From IMG/VR virus record IMGVR_UViG_3300008112_000002, positions 1 to 36,287 of that record: a stretch of DNA of 36,287 bases, one strand, 5' to 3'. Positions 1-36,287 of the stretch are shown here, piece after piece. Every line of letters starts with the position of its first letter. The stretch's first letter is position 1. The stretch is from a virus. The notes under the pieces are model-generated. The model had not been told where the DNA came from, searched no databases, and saw only the letters and a list, made by a program, of their open reading frames with translations. Both the position numbers and the translations under genes were made by a program.

Positions 1-114
1 CAATACGCTGTTTGCCGCTACGGGCGCGGTGTTTGTCAAAGCAATAGTGAACTGGTCAGTGTCAAGGTTAGCCACTGTCACCATGTTTTTAGCCCAGGCG
101 TGAAATTTATTCCA
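1..114. repeat. Terminal direct repeat, copy 1 (identical to 36174..36287)
   Basis: The 114 nt caatacgctgtttgcc...gtgaaatttattcca occur at both window ends. The repeat lies inside coding sequence, so it is a circular-closure or terminal-redundancy overlap rather than a physical end. Confidence 0.95.
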
Positions 115-123: not shown

Positions 124-2523
124 TTATTCATCCGTTTCTATTCTTACAGTTTTTCCATTTGACAAAGTTAATTTTTTGTTTTTTCTGATTGCTGAAATAG
201 CTTTTTCTGTATTTTTGATATTTGTTTCAGCAAAATTATTCATTATTTCACCTATCTTATTAACATTATCGCTTACCAAGATGGAGTTTTGCTCAATTTT
301 TTGAATAGATTCTTGCATATTTTGCGCTAATTGATTTATCTTGTCTGGGGTGTTTATTTCCGATCGCAATTTTTCAATCTCAGCATCCTGATTTATTATT
401 TTTCTAGCTTTCATTTCATTATCTAATTGCATCGACTCTATTTCTAATTGTTCTTTTTGGCTTATTTGTACCGGTTGCGTTTCTATTGGTGGAAGTATTT
501 GTTGTTGAACAGGTTCAATTTTTGGCGCTTCATTGTATTCAAATTGACCTTGTTCAGCATCGCTCAACGTTTTAACCGTTTGGGCACGCTTCAACTCAGC
601 AGATGCAATAGTTTCTACCGTATCAGCCCTAGCTTTAGCAGCTTTAGCCACAGCCTCTTCAGCAGCGGCCTGCAAGAATATCGCGTTCGGGTCTTGGGGT
701 TTGCCCTGTAGCTCAATCATCATAGCTTGGGCTTCTTCTTCGGTCGGTTCAATAGCGCCGATTTTTACCAGACGCTTACGGAAAAAGCCTTGCAGTTCGC
801 CGATTCCTTCGCCTTCCATATTCATCATGGCAGCGCTTTGTAAGACTTGCTGTGTTTCTGGGTCTGATGTAATGGCCAGCATTCCCGTGAGAGCACGTAC
901 AGTGGCGGCCTTTTGGCTTGAGCTCGAAGGTCCGACATCAACAGTCACATCATAGTTAGCCTTTGATATGTCATTTTCATAGACCATTTCGCCTTGCTCG
1001 TTGATGCTCGGCTTTAACATTTCGATAGTAGCCGTTTCTTTTGATGCTGTGACTACTTTCATTTTTTTGCGTTCGGCTGAGTATATGTCTTTTGCCATAG
1101 ACAGCCAGACTTGTCCGCATCGCCTCATTGCCTTGGCAAAGTTGCTCATGTAAATAAATGCTTGCATATCTAGGCGCTGTTGTATCATTTCAACAGCCTT
1201 GCCTGAGATATTCGACACCATCTTGTCGGCCTGTTGTGGCGAACCCAATACGTCCTGCATGTCAGTTTCAGTTACTTGCAACAAAGCCGCCATGGCCGGT
1301 GGTATTTGTGGGCTTCGTGTATATCCAACAGGAGGAGCGGCGGTCTCGTTGCCGTTCATGTCCTTAATTGGATTGATGAGCAGATATGGGTAAGACTTAA
1401 TGTTGTCTTCTTGCCACATCACCGTATGACCAGCCACCTGTTCAGGTGTGAGAATGGGCTTTTCTACTGAGCTTACTGCGCTAATCTCGGCCAGTTTTGA
1501 TAGCTGCATATTCTTGATACGTTGCGCATCCTTGGCTAAACGCACATGACCCATGCAGCGCTCAACGTTATCAATAAACCATCTTTTGCCATAGACCGGA
1601 ATAATTGGGATGTTTTTACCTGCAATATAGCCGAAGTCTTCCAATACTTTACCGCCACTTAGCAGGTACTTTCTTACCTTTTTGGTTTTGAATCGCTTGC
1701 GCCTTACTTCAATTGAGCCAACTGCTTCAAGATTAGACAATAGCTCTTCGTCGGCGTCAAAGTCTGACTGTGTGTAGCGCTCTTCCTCGCCGATTGCATT
1801 TCGATAGAAGATAGCGACTTCCGACTTTTCCTCGACGCGGTAATACTCGGCGACATACACTACGTCCGGGGTTTCCCAGTCAAATTCAAGCTGTGTAATA
1901 TCTTTTGCCCATGTTGCCGGGTCGTCTCCCCACGTGTTTTTATAGGCTTCGCGCTCAATTGCTGTAATAACAAAACAATGCTTTGCGTCGCTCTTGTCTT
2001 GTCTTTTTGCTTCCAAGTCAAAGAATACAGACGAATCTGCATCAAATATCGGTTCTATTCTAATGCGCTGACTGTCATCGTCTGGGTCTTCTTCATTTTC
2101 GTATTCTGTTCGTATCCGCCATGCACCAAAACCACCAGATACAGCCTCTTCGAATGCGTTATCGTAGGCCTCATCAGCTGTACTATCTTGCTCATCAGCG
2201 CGATACAGTCCATCAAGCATATCGGCTGTTTTCTTTTCTGTGTCGCCGTCTTTGCTGATAAAGTCAACCGTTATTCGATTGTTTCGGTATTCATTAATGA
2301 TACGAATTACCGACAAGTGGATTTTATTGACCTCAAATTTTGGTTTGTTAGCGTAAACCTCAGCCAGATTTCCTTCCCATTGCGCACCAGCAATAGAATA
2401 GAATCGACGGTCTTGCAAGCATTGTAAGCGCTCGCTTCTTAATGCTGATTGAATAGTGCTGAATTCAGTAAGCGCCTGAGCGTGTATTTCAGTCAGTCGC
2501 TGTTCGGTGGATTTACGTGCCAT
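124..2523 (-). CDS. Portal protein, P22 gp1 type, with a long C-terminal coiled-coil extension
   Basis: 799-aa ORF. Blocks RFYSIAGAQWEG, GGFGAWRIRTEYENE, RIEPIFDA and DKSDAKHCFVI are colinear with P22 gp1 (GVGAWRLVTDYED, RREPIH, DKSDARHCTVI). It sits directly downstream of terL. Confidence 0.93.
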   Translation of the reverse strand: MARKSTEQRLTEIHAQALTEFSTIQSALRSERLQCLQDRRFYSIAGAQWEGNLAEVYANKPKFEVNKIHLSVIRIINEYRNNRITVDFISKDGDTEKKTADMLDGLYRADEQDSTADEAYDNAFEEAVSGGFGAWRIRTEYENEEDPDDDSQRIRIEPIFDADSSVFFDLEAKRQDKSDAKHCFVITAIEREAYKNTWGDDPATWAKDITQLEFDWETPDVVYVAEYYRVEEKSEVAIFYRNAIGEEERYTQSDFDADEELLSNLEAVGSIEVRRKRFKTKKVRKYLLSGGKVLEDFGYIAGKNIPIIPVYGKRWFIDNVERCMGHVRLAKDAQRIKNMQLSKLAEISAVSSVEKPILTPEQVAGHTVMWQEDNIKSYPYLLINPIKDMNGNETAAPPVGYTRSPQIPPAMAALLQVTETDMQDVLGSPQQADKMVSNISGKAVEMIQQRLDMQAFIYMSNFAKAMRRCGQVWLSMAKDIYSAERKKMKVVTASKETATIEMLKPSINEQGEMVYENDISKANYDVTVDVGPSSSSQKAATVRALTGMLAITSDPETQQVLQSAAMMNMEGEGIGELQGFFRKRLVKIGAIEPTEEEAQAMMIELQGKPQDPNAIFLQAAAEEAVAKAAKARADTVETIASAELKRAQTVKTLSDAEQGQFEYNEAPKIEPVQQQILPPIETQPVQISQKEQLEIESMQLDNEMKARKIINQDAEIEKLRSEINTPDKINQLAQNMQESIQKIEQNSILVSDNVNKIGEIMNNFAETNIKNTEKAISAIRKNKKLTLSNGKTVRIETDE

Positions 2524-2547
2524 GCTTGCCCCTGTTTGCCGGATTTT

Positions 2548-3771
2548 CTACCATTTAGAGATAATTGGCAAGGGAATAACTGTTTGCGGTTTAACCGTTT
2601 GCGCTCGTCTTGCCCCTTCGCAAGCATACCTTAGAGAATCAATGACGTGGTTTTTCTTGTCCTCTAGTATGGGCAAGATTTTACCAGTCATCGGGTCAGT
2701 CTTATATGAGTACATCGTCAGCTCGTCAATAGTATGAGTGCAACGCGGATGCACGACAATATCATAAGACTTGAGCCACTCTATCCCTTCTTCTACTGAC
2801 TTTGACCCTTTGACGGCCGGCATAATCTTAGGAAATCCGTTTTTCCTCATGTGCGCAATTGTTTCAGGGCGTGAAGAATCGGCGGTAATCGGCCATTTTT
2901 CGGATTCTGGCACTGTCATAAATAGGTCAGGCGTATTAACAATCTCACAGCCAACCATATAGGCTTCATAATCAATGTATAGCTTACGCCCAATAATATG
3001 GCAGCGCACCAGTACAGTTGGATCTACAGCATAGCCCCAGTCTGCGCCCAGCCTATGGATTGCATCTGGTGGCGCGTCAAATTCCTCAACCCTCCAATTC
3101 TTAAACACACGAGTAGAGCTATTTTTGACGTACTGACCACGCCAAACGTGCGCGTATTTGTCTGGGTCGCGGTCTCTGTCATACTCCATTTCAGCCCGTA
3201 ATACATCCGGAAACCATGGATTGTCGTCAAAGTTGACCTCAACTATTACCGCTCCTGGCGGCACTTTGTTGCCCCTAAGCAATACGTCCACCGGGTCAGT
3301 GGCTTCGCTAGGGTTCCAAGTAAACCACAGTTCAGAGTCTGGCTTTCTGATTGTCGGTCTTAGTAAATCTAGGCTTCGCTGGCTTAGGCTTTGAGCTTCT
3401 TCCACCCATGCCCTGTCGTATCCTTCCAGAGATTTGATTGAATCAGCCGTGTGATTCTGCATCCCCTGAAAGATTATCAAGCCATCACCTTTTTTAGCTT
3501 TGATGACAGATTCTTGTATTTCAAAATAAGCGCCTGCATTCATCGACTCAATCTTGAGTTCTAATAGGCGTTTGACGGATTGGTTTAATGATTTTTGGAT
3601 TTCACGGACACATACGCTTCTACTGTTTTGGTCTAGGATGTGTTCCTCAATCATCATTTCAGCGAATGCGTGAGACTTTCCCGAACCGCGTCCACCGTGC
3701 GCTCCCTTATATCGAGCAGGCTGTAATAATGGAGCCGCCCATTTGGGAGTTTCAATCTTTAGCGTTGTCAA
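2548..3771 (-). CDS. terL: Terminase large subunit (PBSX / Terminase_3 type)
   Basis: 407 aa. Walker A motif GGRGSGKSHAF near the N-terminus, and size and layout typical of PBSX-family TerL. It lies between the small-terminase candidate and the portal. Confidence 0.92.
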   Translation of the reverse strand: MTTLKIETPKWAAPLLQPARYKGAHGGRGSGKSHAFAEMMIEEHILDQNSRSVCVREIQKSLNQSVKRLLELKIESMNAGAYFEIQESVIKAKKGDGLIIFQGMQNHTADSIKSLEGYDRAWVEEAQSLSQRSLDLLRPTIRKPDSELWFTWNPSEATDPVDVLLRGNKVPPGAVIVEVNFDDNPWFPDVLRAEMEYDRDRDPDKYAHVWRGQYVKNSSTRVFKNWRVEEFDAPPDAIHRLGADWGYAVDPTVLVRCHIIGRKLYIDYEAYMVGCEIVNTPDLFMTVPESEKWPITADSSRPETIAHMRKNGFPKIMPAVKGSKSVEEGIEWLKSYDIVVHPRCTHTIDELTMYSYKTDPMTGKILPILEDKKNHVIDSLRYACEGARRAQTVKPQTVIPLPIISKW

Positions 3772-4823: not shown

Positions 4824-4915
4824 GGGGCTTATTACCCCGGATGCCCGTAGCCCTATTCGTCAATAGGGTTCACTGGTAAATCCCAGCCATACGCTTTGCA
4901 GGCTACTTTCGTAGC
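4824..4915 (-). promoter_or_regulatory. Cluster of four stem-loops in the intergenic region (possible RNA regulatory element)
   Basis: Minus-strand hairpins are GCTAC-GAAA-GTAGC (4902..4915, GNRA loop), CTGG-GATTTA-CCAG (4873..4886), CCCTATT-GACG-AATAGGG (4851..4868) and GGGG-TAATAAG-CCCC (4824..4838). An alternative pairing GTAGCC/GGCTAC links 4901..4906 with 4847..4852. None is followed by a U-tract. Confidence 0.5.
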
Positions 4916-4949
4916 TCCTGTGCCGGACTGCTCACTAATACGATTATCT

Positions 4950-5135
4950 TTAATCTTTTTCCATGCCCAATAAAGTTTTTATCGCCCACGTCCACTTTCC
5001 TGTTTCCAATTTTGACAAAACAAACATGGTTAAAAGTGCGGCAACAGTTGCGTATAAAATACCAATTGCCATCATTCCGTTAAGAATGAAGAATACCCAT
5101 GTTAGAAAATAAACAATCGGAATTGCTAAAAACAT
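4950..5135 (-). CDS. Small two-TM membrane protein
   Basis: 61 aa with two hydrophobic segments (FLAIPIVYFLTWVFFILNGMMAIGILYATVAALLTMFVL). Strong SD (ctAAGGAGAGaattATG). The start is 38 nt downstream of the tRNA-like element. Confidence 0.7.
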   Translation of the reverse strand: MFLAIPIVYFLTWVFFILNGMMAIGILYATVAALLTMFVLSKLETGKWTWAIKTLLGMEKD

Positions 5136-5173
5136 AATTCTCTCCTTAGTGAGTTGTTAATCCCCGTGCGTGT

Positions 5174-5268
5174 TGGTGGAGGCGGTTGGATTTGCACCAA
5201 CTGACCAAAAGGAAACGGATTTACAGCGCTGTAAGTCCGCCGCGACCCGCTGTCGTCGCCGCGCCTCC
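5174..5268 (-). ncRNA. tRNA-like RNA (acceptor stem + T-arm + encoded CCA; anticodon arm replaced by a palindromic hairpin)
   Basis: Minus strand reads GGAGGCG-CG-GCGAC/GACAGCGG/GTCGC-GG-CGGACTTACA/GCGC/TGTAAATCCG-TTTCCTTTTGGTCA-GTTGG/TGCAAAT/CCAAC-CGCCTCC-A-CCA. It has a perfect 7-bp acceptor stem, a 5-bp T-stem with a 7-nt loop, and GG in the D-like loop. There is no 7-nt anticodon loop. Confidence 0.55.
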
Positions 5269-5535
5269 AAGTCCCCGTCTTTCCGGGGCGTCATCTAGGT
5301 GCTGCATTTCAAACTGCCTAGCCAATTTCTCATAACCGATTAGCAGCGTCCGTTTTGTTAGTGGCGGGCGCTGATCTCCCGCATGTCTGCATTGCAAAGT
5401 CAGGTACGGGTCATCAAACTAGCAGACAGAAGACTCTTTGACACCGTTTTTGCGTATCAGCCTACGCATTCACTAACACGACTAAAACTTGATTAGCTCC
5501 CTTGCGGGCGGTCGTCCTGGCCATGGGACAGTTCA

Positions 5536-5697
5536 TCAAGTCTCATGCGTCTTATTTTCCCTCATTTTCGCTATCTTATCCAACATTTCCCGCTTTTCAA
5601 TTAGCGCTTTTGCTTTCTTTTCTGCCTCCGCTTTACTCAGTCCAGCGTCGTATTGAAGTATTGCGGCTCGTTCTTCAAATGCTTCACGGTCAATCAT
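5536..5697 (-). CDS. Hypothetical protein (53 aa, below ORF-track cut-off)
   Basis: MIDREAFEERAAILQYDAGLSKAEAEKKAKALIEKREML... The FEERAAI..YD.GLS..EAE motif recurs in many phage and plasmid proteins. ATGA overlap with the upstream gene stop at 5694. Confidence 0.65.
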   Translation of the reverse strand: MIDREAFEERAAILQYDAGLSKAEAEKKAKALIEKREMLDKIAKMRENKTHET

Positions 5698-7178: not shown

Positions 7179-7483
7179 TTCATACCCTTTCCAATTTCAG
7201 CAGCAGCACGGACAACCGCTCGGCGCGCTGCTTTTCTAGCATCTTTACCTAAAGGTTCGCTATAAAACACCCCATCAAAACAAGCATTTGCGGATTGATC
7301 TGTAATTATCAGTTCTATTTTTAAATCGACTTGTAGCCTTCTATTGTCGCCATCGTCGTCGAGCGGGTTCCACTTAATGCCTGGAAGTACCTCTGCAAAA
7401 CACCAAGGGTCAACATCGCCGTGCCATGTAATTTTAATTCCGATGGCCTTCGCAGCAAGTTCCAGCATTTTACGGTCAGTCAT
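7175..7483 (-). CDS. Hypothetical protein (N-terminus MTDRKMLELA, paralogous to the internal module of 6381..7178)
   Basis: ATG at 7483; the ORF track starts at a GTG at 7489. The 22 nt at 7473..7494 repeat 7003..7024 with one mismatch. Confidence 0.7.
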   Translation of the reverse strand: MTDRKMLELAAKAIGIKITWHGDVDPWCFAEVLPGIKWNPLDDDGDNRRLQVDLKIELIITDQSANACFDGVFYSEPLGKDARKAARRAVVRAAAEIGKGMK

Positions 7484-7557
7484 GCCCACCCCGCAGCGCT
7501 TACAAACTCATCCCATGTTAGGGATACTTCTTTGTCTTCTAAAATGATTATGGTCAT
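7480..7557 (-). CDS. Possible 25-aa micro-ORF
   Basis: MTIIILEDKEVSLTWDEFVSAAGWA. It is preceded by the same CAGGAGAATGAAA cassette that precedes the genes starting at 7825 and 14661. Its stop forms an ATGA overlap with the ATG at 7483. Confidence 0.3.
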   Translation of the reverse strand: MTIIILEDKEVSLTWDEFVSAAGWA

Positions 7558-35891: not shown

Positions 35892-36257
35892 CTACGATAA
35901 AGTAATTGCAGCGCCAGTTAAGTCAACAGTAAATGTTTCACCGTTTGCCATGGTTATGCTTGAACCATAATCCCACCATGAAACCACTGGGTCGAGCGGT
36001 GAAGTAAGCGTGTTGTCATAAAGGACAGCATAACGAAACGAAGGTACAGAGCCTGAAGCTGTCAGAGTCAAGTCTTGAAACACAAGCGTATAAACGCCTC
36101 CAGTTTGCGAAGAGCTTGTCGTAGTGATGTTTCGGCTGGTTAGGTTCGTGTAGCTGATTTCCGTTATATCAGCCAATACGCTGTTTGCCGCTACGGGCGC
36201 GGTGTTTGTCAAAGCAATAGTGAACTGGTCAGTGTCAAGGTTAGCCACTGTCACCAT
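35892..36257 (-). CDS. Hypothetical beta-rich virion-module protein; the ORF stays open to the window edge and continues at 1..123
   Basis: 121 aa from the ATG at 36257. The frame has no stop up to 36287. In the circular genome an ATG 13 codons upstream (window position 123) abuts the portal stop. Confidence 0.65.
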   Translation of the reverse strand: MVTVANLDTDQFTIALTNTAPVAANSVLADITEISYTNLTSRNITTTSSSQTGGVYTLVFQDLTLTASGSVPSFRYAVLYDNTLTSPLDPVVSWWDYGSSITMANGETFTVDLTGAAITLS

Positions 36258-36287
36258 GTTTTTAGCCCAGGCGTGAAATTTATTCCA
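36174..36287. repeat. Terminal direct repeat, copy 2
   Basis: Identical to 1..114. Confidence 0.95.

What the first reader, a model, noticed from the sequence alone, without database searches (positions are those of the whole stretch)
5174..5268. tRNA-like RNA with acceptor stem, T-arm and encoded CCA but a sealed, palindromic anticodon arm
The element lies in the only large non-coding gap of the genome (5136..5535, 400 nt). That gap has no ORF of 60 aa or more in any frame and is visibly more GC-rich than its flanks. On the coding (minus) strand, nt 5268 to 5174 read GGAGGCG CG GCGAC-GACAGCGG-GTCGC GG CGGACTTACA-GCGC-TGTAAATCCG TTTCCTTTTGGTCA GTTGG-TGCAAAT-CCAAC CGCCTCC A CCA. This gives a perfect 7-bp acceptor stem, discriminator A and a genomically encoded CCA. 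The T-arm has a 5-bp stem and a 7-nt loop that keeps the T54/C56/A58 equivalents, with G at position 55. The D-like arm has GG in its loop, so a tRNA elbow could form. Where the anticodon loop should be there is a 10-bp helix with one C/A mismatch, built on the perfect 14-nt palindrome TTACAGCGCTGTAA. Removing 9 nt would recreate a canonical CUUACAA (Val-UAC-like) loop. The variable region is 13-14 nt and essentially unpaired, and the total length is 95 nt. A strong SD and a 61-aa two-TM protein gene follow 38 nt downstream. The genome has no integrase, so a tRNA-derived attP is not an easy explanation. Possible roles (inference) are an RNase P/Z processing signal between early and late RNA, a decoy for anticodon nucleases or other tRNA-directed host defences, or an aminoacylatable tRNA mimic.
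Basis: partly seen in the sequence, partly recalled or inferred. Interest (0 to 1): 0.8.

Follow-up and report, generated by a model that had tools for sequence, protein, structure and literature searches.

The report
Broken phage tyrosine tRNA gene
The "tRNA-like RNA with a sealed anticodon arm" is a phage-carried tyrosine tRNA gene that picked up a 9-base insertion in its anticodon loop, so it is most likely a recently disabled accessory gene and not a new kind of RNA.

Summary
Window 5268..5174 (minus strand) folds into a cloverleaf with a 7-bp acceptor stem, a T arm, A73 and an encoded CCA, and the anticodon arm is closed by the palindrome TTACAGCGCTGTAA.

Related sequences explain it. Five viral contigs from five metagenomes, plus a more distant one, carry the same gene without 9 nt. 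There the loop is the canonical CUGUAAA (anticodon GUA, Tyr). These copies score 42.9 and 39.5 bits against Rfam tRNA (threshold 29).

A tRNA-Tyr covariance model built without the window sequence matches the window end to end (73.1 bits). Its only anomaly is 14 nt where the loop model has 5. Cellular tRNA-Tyr genes share the acceptor stem, the T stem and A73.

- The insertion allele is real: three other assemblies carry it.
- It is unique: none of 108 viral tRNA-Tyr hits sharing this anticodon arm has an insertion.
- The window lineage has also lost A14, which is invariant in the 12-sequence tRNA-Tyr alignment.
- The gene is dispensable: a near-identical phage lacks it precisely, and 80 relatives found by their large terminase lack it.

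The best reading is a freshly inactivated phage tRNA-Tyr gene. A selected non-decoding decoy or processing role is not excluded but has no support. Interest is low.

The parts
5174..5268 (-). Whole element: phage tRNA-Tyr(GUA) gene, class II, carrying a 9-nt insertion (95 nt including the encoded CCA)
   Evidence: Model R1 hit of 73.1 bits, E about 1e-16, matching model positions 1-85 of 85. The minimum-energy fold is a cloverleaf. Intact homologues score 42.9 and 39.5 bits against Rfam tRNA.
5262..5268 (-). Acceptor stem, 5' strand GGAGGCG
   Evidence: Pairs with 5178..5184. The same stem occurs in cellular tRNA-Tyr genes. Six of its 7 pairs covary in alignment A1.
5242..5259 (-). D arm: stem GCGA/TCGC and loop CGACAGCGGG. 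The first loop base is C where A14 is invariant in the 12-sequence alignment
   Evidence: The close homologue L001 and the more distant L105 both have A at this position.
5215..5240 (-). Anticodon arm: stem GCGGA/TCCGT enclosing a 16-nt loop that pairs with itself
   Evidence: -10.3 kcal/mol, against -4.9 for the intact arm.
5226..5234 (-). The 9-nt insertion TTACAGCGC, an inverted copy of CTGTAA plus CG. It is absent from all homologues with an intact loop
   Evidence: Alignments. In one search the window has 14 nt where the model has 5.
5221..5234 (.). Perfect 14-bp palindrome TTACAGCGCTGTAA created by the insertion
   Evidence: one occurrence in the window, none other with up to 3 mismatches.
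5222..5224 (-). Former anticodon GTA (Tyr), now base-paired inside the sealed helix
5202..5214 (-). Long (class II) variable region TTCCTTTTGGTCA with a 2-bp CC/GG stem
   Evidence: Both stem pairs covary in A1.
5185..5201 (-). T arm GTTGG-TGCAAAT-CCAAC, with G at position 55
   Evidence: The stem is identical to cellular tRNA-Tyr genes. G55 occurs in 8 of 74 distinct viral tRNA-Tyr genes that share this anticodon arm.
5174..5184 (-). Acceptor 3' strand CGCCTCC, discriminator A73 and encoded CCA

Best explanation
The element is a phage-borne, bacterial-type class II tRNA-Tyr(GUA) gene. It sits as an optional cassette in the intergenic region between the replication/recombination genes and the terminase genes of a circular, co-directionally transcribed 36-kb phage with P22-like head, portal and ejection-protein genes.

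In this lineage a 9-nt insertion landed between C32 and U33 of the anticodon loop. The insert is an inverted copy of the adjacent CTGTAA plus CG. The loop now pairs with itself (UUACA/UGUAA, GCGC tetraloop) and the anticodon is buried.

Inferred consequences:
- The RNA is probably still transcribed with its neighbours. Its acceptor and T arms are intact, so RNase P and the 3' processing enzymes probably still trim it.
- It cannot decode. It is best regarded as a recently inactivated, dispensable tRNA gene (a pseudo-tRNA).
- The mutation is of the type that extends the arms of an imperfect inverted repeat. Such changes are usually attributed to template switching during DNA synthesis.
For: 1. 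**Homologues have the normal loop.** Five viral contigs from five metagenomes carry the same gene with the canonical 7-nt loop CUGUAAA and no other length change. A more divergent homologue, L105, also has the intact loop, so the insertion is the derived state.
2. **The intact copies are tRNAs.** They score 42.9 and 39.5 bits against Rfam RF00005, whose threshold is 29.
3. **The window matches a tRNA-Tyr model.** Model R1, built without the window sequence, aligns to 5268..5174 full length at 73.1 bits. The only irregularity is +9 nt in the anticodon loop.
4. **Tyr identity.** Cellular tRNA-Tyr genes of Acidobacteriota and Betaproteobacteria share GGAGGCG/CGCCTCC, GTTGG/CCAAC, A73 and CCA. The cloverleaf covaries: 97.8% of cells are paired, 17 of 23 pairs have double changes, and 0 of 500 shuffles reach the observed values.
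5. **A second lesion.** A14, invariant in the 12-sequence alignment, is C in the window only.
6. **The gene is dispensable.** L245 is 97.7% identical to the window over the 562 nt immediately upstream of the tRNA start and lacks the tRNA precisely. None of 80 phages with 78-98% identical large terminase has it.
7. **The sealed form is a one-off.** All 108 viral tRNA-Tyr hits with this anticodon arm, among 120 returned hits, have a 7-nt loop.
8. **The allele is real.** Three other assemblies show it, and one of those differs from the window by a 218-bp indel.
9. **Decoding matters in the one tested case.** For T5-like phage tRNA-Tyr, changing the anticodon or the stems abolished rescue from retron-Eco7 (PMC11555353).
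10. **Origin.** Mutations that extend quasi-palindrome arms through template switching are documented (PMC7202029, PMC3820800).
Against: - All copies of the insertion allele are 100% identical, so there has been no time to see decay or constraint. Neutrality is inferred, not shown.
- Apart from A14C, the rest of the tRNA is untouched. Against L001 there are 3 substitutions in 86 nt, compared with about 6 in 132 nt of upstream flank. The data therefore also fit a retained function.
- The insertion is a neat perfect palindrome that leaves the cloverleaf as the minimum-energy fold. A selected change could look like this.
- I could not derive the exact 9 nt from a simple one-step template switch on the intact sequence.
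- Expression and processing are untested.
Confidence: 0.68

Rival explanations
1. Selected non-decoding tRNA-Tyr mimic. The sealed allele keeps the acceptor, T and variable arms. It could act as an uncleavable decoy for a host nuclease that targets tRNA-Tyr, as a sink for TyrRS or another tRNA-binding factor, or as an RNase P 'punctuation' site that frees the mRNA of the 61-aa gene 38 nt downstream.
For: - The cloverleaf remains the minimum-energy fold and the acceptor and T arms are intact.
- Defences that deplete tRNA-Tyr exist, and phages counter them with their own tRNA-Tyr (PMC11555353).
- Among the loci fetched, the insertion allele and the 61-aa gene occur together, and only in the window lineage.
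Against: - In the one tested system, rescue needed an intact anticodon and intact stems.
- The sealed form occurs in a single near-clonal lineage and in none of 108 other viral tRNA-Tyr hits.
- A near-identical phage and 80 relatives do without the gene altogether.
- The extra A14C change hits a position that is invariant in the 12-sequence tRNA-Tyr alignment, which does not fit selection to keep the tRNA fold.
Confidence: 0.12
2. The change matters at the DNA level. The new 14-bp perfect palindrome could be a binding site for a dimeric protein. Alternatively, the insertion could be an escape mutation that destroyed a target of DNA-directed host immunity (a CRISPR protospacer or another nuclease site) inside a gene the phage can afford to lose.
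For: - It is a perfect palindrome, unique in the genome.
- It lies in a dispensable gene.
- It sits in an intergenic control region at the early/late boundary.
Against: - No second copy or half-site-related sequence exists elsewhere in the genome, even allowing 3 mismatches.
- The AGCGCT core is common, with 17 sites in the genome, so it is not a special site.
- No candidate binding protein or matching spacer was identified.
Confidence: 0.08
3. The lengthened anticodon hairpin, followed directly by UUUCCUUUU, acts as a new intrinsic terminator or attenuator between the early genes and the packaging genes.
For: The hairpin energy doubles from -4.9 to -10.3 kcal/mol, and the hairpin is immediately followed by a U-rich variable region.
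Against: - The terminator scan does not flag it.
- The stem has an internal C.A mismatch and an A/U-rich upper half, and CC interrupts the U tract.
- By my own rough estimate it falls well short of typical terminator hairpin strength.
- The terminase and portal genes downstream have no good promoter-like site of their own in the scan.
Confidence: 0.05
4. The 9-nt insertion is an assembly or sequencing artefact at a hairpin-forming site.
For: Palindromic sequence is error-prone for some library and assembly methods (my own background knowledge, not tested here).
Against: The identical insertion appears in three further assemblies from different sample accessions (JGI 3300021584, JGI 3300034010, NCBI GCA_031545105.1). 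One of them differs from the window by a 218-bp indel.
Confidence: 0.03
5. It is a tRNA-derived attP core, or a short protein-coding gene (ORF 5157..5294).
For: The 3' half closely resembles the 3' end of cellular tRNA-Tyr genes. A 45-aa ORF overlaps the element.
Against: - The tRNA is full length, with a complementary 5' half.
- It has two mismatches (positions 55 and 57) to the nearest cellular T loops, and no representative genome carries the G55 form.
- No integrase was found in any ORF of 170 aa or more that I scanned.
- In L001 the ORF is frameshifted and hits a stop. In L245 the tRNA and the part of the ORF that overlaps it are absent.
Confidence: 0.02

Closest known systems
Phage-encoded tRNA-Tyr(GUA) genes, e.g. 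those of T5-like phages (PMC11555353) and the large viral clade with anticodon arm GCGGA-CUGUAAA-UCCGU found here
   Same: - The same anticodon arm sequence, the class II variable arm, A73, and C at position 8 with the G9-G10-C11 D-arm start seen in about 46 of 74 viral sequences.
- The G55 variant recurs in 8 of 74.
- It is an accessory gene with a patchy distribution among related phages.
   Different: The window copy has 9 extra nt that bury the anticodon, and C instead of A14. No other member examined has a loop longer than 7 nt.
Cellular bacterial tRNA-Tyr genes (Thermoanaerobaculia/Acidobacteriota; the Betaproteobacteria Piscinibacterium and Uliginosibacterium)
   Same: - Identical acceptor stem GGAGGCG/CGCCTCC in the acidobacterial genes L331, L333-L337 and L339; the other cellular genes differ at position 6 of the 5' strand.
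- Identical T stem GTTGG/CCAAC or CCAGC, A73, CCA and CUGUAAA loop.
- Piscinibacterium has a similar short variable arm.
   Different: The cellular genes have U8, a 3-bp D stem with a GAGYGG-type D loop, and U55. The phage gene has C8, a GCGA/UCGC D stem, G55 and, in the window, the insertion.
tRNA pseudogenes and mutations that extend quasi-palindrome arms by template switching (PMC7202029, PMC3820800)
   Same: It is a short insertion that turns the loop of an imperfect inverted repeat (the anticodon arm) into a perfect palindrome, disabling the gene.
   Different: I could not reconstruct the exact 9 nt by a single switch on the intact sequence. The CG in the centre is untemplated, or is copied from elsewhere (ACAGCG also occurs in the D loop).
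Dedicated tRNA mimics: the tmRNA tRNA-like domain, bacterial Y RNA (YrlA) tRNA-like modules, and plant-virus 3' tRNA-like structures (from my own knowledge)
   Same: An acceptor/T-arm unit with CCA but no usable anticodon.
   Different: Those are conserved families with their own architecture. Here ARAGORN finds no tmRNA, the best tmRNA-type Rfam score on the homologue is 17.5 bits against a threshold of 47, and the sealed form is a single derived allele of a normal tRNA.

Membership tests
tRNA (Rfam RF00005) / bacterial class II tRNA-Tyr | Cloverleaf with a 7-bp acceptor stem and D, anticodon and T arms, supported by covariation | tested here: met
   Minimum-energy cloverleaf. R1 full-length hit at 73.1 bits. 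97.8% of cells paired and 17 of 23 pairs with double changes across 12 tRNA-Tyr sequences.
tRNA (Rfam RF00005) / bacterial class II tRNA-Tyr | Score at or above the Rfam gathering threshold (29 bits) | tested here: not met
   The window gets no tRNA hit even at E <= 10. The intact homologues L001 and L105 do pass, at 42.9 and 39.5 bits. Even they are lost by Rfam's default filters and by ARAGORN.
tRNA (Rfam RF00005) / bacterial class II tRNA-Tyr | 7-nt anticodon loop with U33 and an exposed anticodon | tested here: not met
   The window has a 16-nt loop that pairs with itself, burying GUA. The feature is met in L001-L005 and L105.
tRNA (Rfam RF00005) / bacterial class II tRNA-Tyr | Tyr identity set: G1-C72, A73, a long variable arm and a GUA anticodon (identity rules from my own knowledge) | tested here: met
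   All four are present in sequence and shared with cellular tRNA-Tyr genes. Accessibility of the anticodon is lost in the window allele.
tRNA (Rfam RF00005) / bacterial class II tRNA-Tyr | Conserved core nucleotides U8, A14 and T54-U55-C56 | tested here: not met
   The window has C8, C14 and G55. C8 is common and G55 recurrent in phage tRNA-Tyr genes. C14 is unique to the window.
tRNA-derived attP core of a temperate phage | Only the 3' part of a host tRNA, identical to the host gene, next to an integrase gene | tested here: not met
   The gene is full length. No integrase was found. No identical sequence occurs in 185,579 representative genomes, and the nearest cellular genes differ at positions 55 and 57.
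tmRNA (one-piece or permuted) | tRNA-like domain plus a tag reading frame and pseudoknots, detected by ARAGORN or Rfam | tested here: not met
   ARAGORN finds 0 genes. The Rfam permuted-tmRNA model scores only 17.5 bits against a threshold of 47, on the T arm and CCA of the homologue.
Intrinsic (Rho-independent) terminator | Strong G+C-rich hairpin immediately followed by an uninterrupted U tract | tested here: not met
   Not flagged by the scan. The hairpin is -10.3 kcal/mol with a C.A mismatch, and the tail is UUUCCUUUU.

The most novel reading that the evidence does not exclude
The sealed-anticodon allele is not a dead gene. It would be a selected, non-decoding tRNA-Tyr mimic made in one mutational step from a phage tRNA. 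It keeps every surface except the anticodon loop. It could therefore titrate a host nuclease or sensor directed at tRNA-Tyr, or serve purely as an RNase P processing site for the newly acquired downstream 61-aa gene.
Probability: 0.1. Interest if true: 0.7.

Novelty: new member of a known kind. Interest (0 to 1): 0.22.

Why it matters
As it stands, this is a small natural-history note. It shows a phage accessory tRNA caught just after inactivation, and it illustrates how freely such genes are gained, broken and lost at one recombination-prone spot in a phage genome.

There is a practical lesson too. This clade of phage tRNA-Tyr genes (C8, sometimes G55) is missed by ARAGORN and by Rfam's default filters even when intact. 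A lone mutant copy can therefore look like a mysterious 'tRNA-like' RNA.

If the minority reading were true, and a one-step conversion of a tRNA into an uncleavable decoy had been selected, it would add a new route to phage counter-defence against tRNA-targeting immunity.

Tried and rejected
- **Standard detectors on the window.** ARAGORN and Rfam (gathering mode and E <= 10) found nothing. This turned out to be uninformative, because the same tools also miss the intact homologue.
- **Phage GenBank collection.** BLASTN of the 800-nt region found no match.
- **Metagenome scan.** It returned no copy of this gene. L168, which has 4 extra nt at the same loop position, has no 5' acceptor strand and was dropped.
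- **Relatives found by their large terminase.** None of the 80 loci has this tRNA, and ARAGORN detects no tRNA in them.
- **T-loop pattern.** GGTGCAAATCC...CTCCACCA mostly retrieved phage permuted tmRNAs, which are unrelated to the element.
- **Donor or second copy of the palindrome in the genome.** None found.
- **Coding reading.** Rejected, because the ORF is frameshifted and stopped in L001.
- **attP reading.** Rejected.
- **Terminator reading.** Weak.
- **One-step template-switch derivation of the exact 9 nt.** I attempted this by hand and did not find one.
- **Consensus fold of the upstream 110-nt module.** With only four sequences it gave no usable covariation.

Full report
**What the window is.**
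The 36,287-nt window has a 114-nt terminal overlap, so it is a complete circular or circularly permuted contig with 45.5% GC. All convincing genes lie on the minus strand.

- Morphogenesis genes are P22-like: portal (PF16510), large terminase, scaffold, coat (PF11651), a gp10-like stabilisation protein, ejection proteins and a beta-helix tailspike.
- The rest of the genome is a lambdoid-style early set: Erf, NinB, HNH endonuclease, an O-like/primosomal replication protein and a RuvC-like resolvase.
- None of the ORFs of 170 aa or more that I scanned (all but one with PHROGs, ten of them also with Pfam) matched an integrase or recombinase family.
- The nearest cultured relatives by coat protein are Ralstonia and Pseudomonas podophages at 57-58% identity. 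Two uncultured freshwater phages reach 61-68%.

In transcription order, the 400-nt gap 5136..5535 lies after the last early gene (5536..5697). It precedes a 61-aa ORF, three small ORFs, the large terminase and the portal.

**Checking the observation.**
Folded alone, its minimum-energy structure is the proposed cloverleaf: -39.7 kcal/mol, z = -2.5. The palindrome TTACAGCGCTGTAA is at 5221..5234 and is unique in the genome. ARAGORN and Rfam report nothing.

**What it is.**
An exact search with the T arm and acceptor 3' strand found five viral contigs from five different metagenomes (L001-L005). They carry the same element, but the anticodon arm reads GGCGGA-CTGTAAA-TCCG. That is a normal 5-bp stem and 7-nt loop with anticodon GUA, so the window has nine extra nucleotides.

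- In permissive mode, Rfam's tRNA model scores the intact copy at 42.9 bits (E = 6e-8, threshold 29).
- A more divergent homologue, L105 (91% identical), scores 39.5 bits. L105 also has the 7-nt loop, so the insertion is the derived state.
- I aligned 12 tRNA-Tyr sequences, none from the window: these two, five other viral or metagenomic sequences and five cellular ones.
- The cloverleaf is paired in 97.8% of cells. Seventeen of 23 pairs show changes on both sides. No shuffle or slid register comes near these values.
- The covariance model built from this alignment hits the window only at 5268..5174: 73.1 bits, E about 1e-16, all 85 model positions. The single irregularity is 14 nt where the anticodon loop model has 5.

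**Tyrosine identity and origin.**
A scan of one genome per bacterial and archaeal species, using the T arm and acceptor with position 55 left free, returned 13 loci. Twelve are tRNA-Tyr(GUA) genes, from Acidobacteriota and from the Betaproteobacteria Piscinibacterium and Uliginosibacterium. They have the T stem GTTGG/CCAAC or CCAGC, A73 and CCA, and the acidobacterial genes L331, L333-L337 and L339 also have the identical acceptor stem GGAGGCG/CGCCTCC. All have U55.

The 13-nt 'unpaired variable region' is therefore the long variable arm of a bacterial class II tRNA-Tyr.

Of these, 108 hits are tRNA-Tyr genes with the identical arm GCGGA-CUGUAAA-UCCGU.

- Among 74 distinct sequences, about 46 start the D arm with C8-G9-G10-C/U11, like the window.
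- Eight have G55 and one has C55.

None of the 108 hits has a loop longer than 7 nt.

**The insertion allele.**
The inserted TTACAGCGC can equally be written as CTTACAGCG one base to the left. It is an inverted copy of the adjacent CTGTAA plus CG, which makes a perfect 14-nt palindrome.

In RNA, the arm becomes a 5 + 5 bp helix with one C.A mismatch and a GCGC loop. Its energy is -10.3 kcal/mol, against -4.9 for the intact arm. The anticodon GUA is paired inside the helix.

The allele is not an assembly artefact.

- Looking up contigs that encode the identical flanking proteins gave a 35.7-kb contig from JGI 3300021584, a contig from NCBI GCA_031545105.1 and one from JGI 3300034010. All carry the insertion.
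- All are otherwise 100% identical to the window, except for a 218-bp indel in the first. This is one near-clonal lineage seen several times.
- The window lineage also carries A14 to C, at a position that is invariant in the alignment and is A in both L001 and L105.

**The gene is dispensable.**
L245 (JGI 3300028430) is 97.7% identical to the window over the 562 nt immediately upstream of the tRNA start. It runs straight from ...CGGGGAC into CAACACG..., skipping the tRNA exactly and continuing into different genes. None of 80 viral loci whose large terminase is 78-98% identical has this tRNA, and ARAGORN detects no tRNA in them.

Three states therefore exist at one hot spot: intact, sealed and absent. 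The 61-aa gene downstream is also an indel. It is absent from L001-L005 and from L245.

**Rejected readings.**
- *Coding.* From the same ATG, the 45-aa ORF is frameshifted in L001 and stops inside the anticodon loop.
- *attP core.* The gene is full length, differs from cellular T loops at positions 55 and 57, is not found in any representative genome, and there is no integrase.
- *tmRNA.* There is no ARAGORN call, and the best Rfam tmRNA-type score on the homologue is 17.5 bits against a threshold of 47.
- *Terminator.* The longer hairpin is followed by UUUCCUUUU. It is weak and mismatched, and the scan does not flag it.

**Most likely mechanism.**
*Shown:* this is a tRNA-Tyr gene whose anticodon loop has been closed by a 9-nt inverted-duplication insertion, in one lineage, in a gene that close relatives lack.

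*Inferred:* the RNA is still made as part of the rightward-to-leftward transcript. Because the acceptor and T arms are untouched, it is probably still cut by RNase P and trimmed at its 3' end. It cannot decode, and the allele is neutral or nearly so.

The mutation belongs to the class that extends the arms of quasi-palindromes, generally ascribed to template switching during DNA synthesis (PMC7202029, PMC3820800). I could not reproduce the exact 9 nt with one switch.

A decoy role has no support from the only experimental parallel. T5-like phage tRNA-Tyr rescues infection from the tRNA-Tyr-depleting retron-Eco7, but only with an intact anticodon and intact stems (PMC11555353). I give the pseudogene reading 0.68 and a selected non-decoding role 0.12. 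DNA-level explanations get 0.08, a terminator 0.05, and artefact, attP or coding together 0.05.

**Novelty.**
Phage tRNA-Tyr genes are well known. This is a new, damaged member of that kind. It is of modest interest as a snapshot of tRNA gene turnover and as a caution about detector blind spots.

Noticed in passing
window 4950..5135 (-): The 61-aa, two-hydrophobic-segment ORF with a strong Shine-Dalgarno 38 nt after the tRNA is itself an indel. It is absent from L001-L005, where other non-coding sequence takes its place, and from L245, where different genes follow. It has no PHROG hit. It looks like a moron inserted at the same hot spot.
   Followed up: partly
window 5271..5382 (-); L001 2160..2263 and 2459..2565: A conserved non-coding module of about 110 nt lies directly upstream of the tRNA and ends in the hairpin CCCCG-GAAAGA-CGGGG. 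It is present twice in tandem in L001, L003 and L005. One candidate stem (CTAGG...CCTAG at 5321..5295) shows a G-C to A-T double change in L001. With four sequences the consensus fold was uninformative. Its function is unknown.
   Followed up: partly
window 5452..5478 (-) and 4900..4939 (-); L001 2100, 2356, 2721; L105: A box (G/T)TGTTAGTGAA followed by a short hairpin recurs at the borders of the non-coding modules and after the 61-aa gene (TATTAGTGAG variant). It also occurs in the distant homologue L105. It could be a promoter-like or nut-like signal, or a recombination boundary. This was not tested.
   Followed up: partly
L001 2568..2653, L105 564..648, L161 3309..3393: Intact phage tRNA-Tyr genes of this clade (C8, G55) are missed by ARAGORN and by Rfam's default gathering-mode filters, although the two scored in permissive mode (L001 and L105) reach 42.9 and 39.5 bits. 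Phage tRNA censuses based on these defaults will undercount them.
   Followed up: yes
L006-L121 (viral contigs), e.g. L021 10887..11273, L011 6224..6606: More than 100 viral contigs carry ...GGACGGGGGTGCAAATCCCCCCAxCTCCACCA. Every one tested is a permuted (two-piece) tmRNA by Rfam (RF04321, RF01849 or RF01850), often right after a TTGACA/TATAAT promoter. By construction of the search pattern, all have G instead of U at T-loop position 55.
   Followed up: partly
L009 995..1064 (similar sequences in L023, L025, L050, L069, L092, L096, L099): These are elements of about 70 nt of the form GGGGGAAAC.TAGATTCGACG...GGACGTGGGTGCAAATCCCACTTCCTCCACCA. They look like a tmRNA tRNA-like domain with almost nothing between the two halves. 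L009 scores 47.5 bits on RF00023, just at threshold.
   Followed up: no
window 7335..7552: A 218-bp segment is present in the window but absent from the otherwise identical 35.7-kb contig of JGI 3300021584.
   Followed up: no
L154 (metagenome contig ERZ1669248.139), around 5577 on the minus strand: A class II tRNA-like gene has about 17 extra nt inside its anticodon loop (GGAC-TCGAGATCCCACGATCCAAG-AAATCC). It is possibly an archaeal-type intron. It is unrelated to the window.
   Followed up: no
window 1..114 and 36174..36287: There is an exact 114-nt terminal direct repeat, so the contig is a complete circular or circularly permuted genome.
   Followed up: yes
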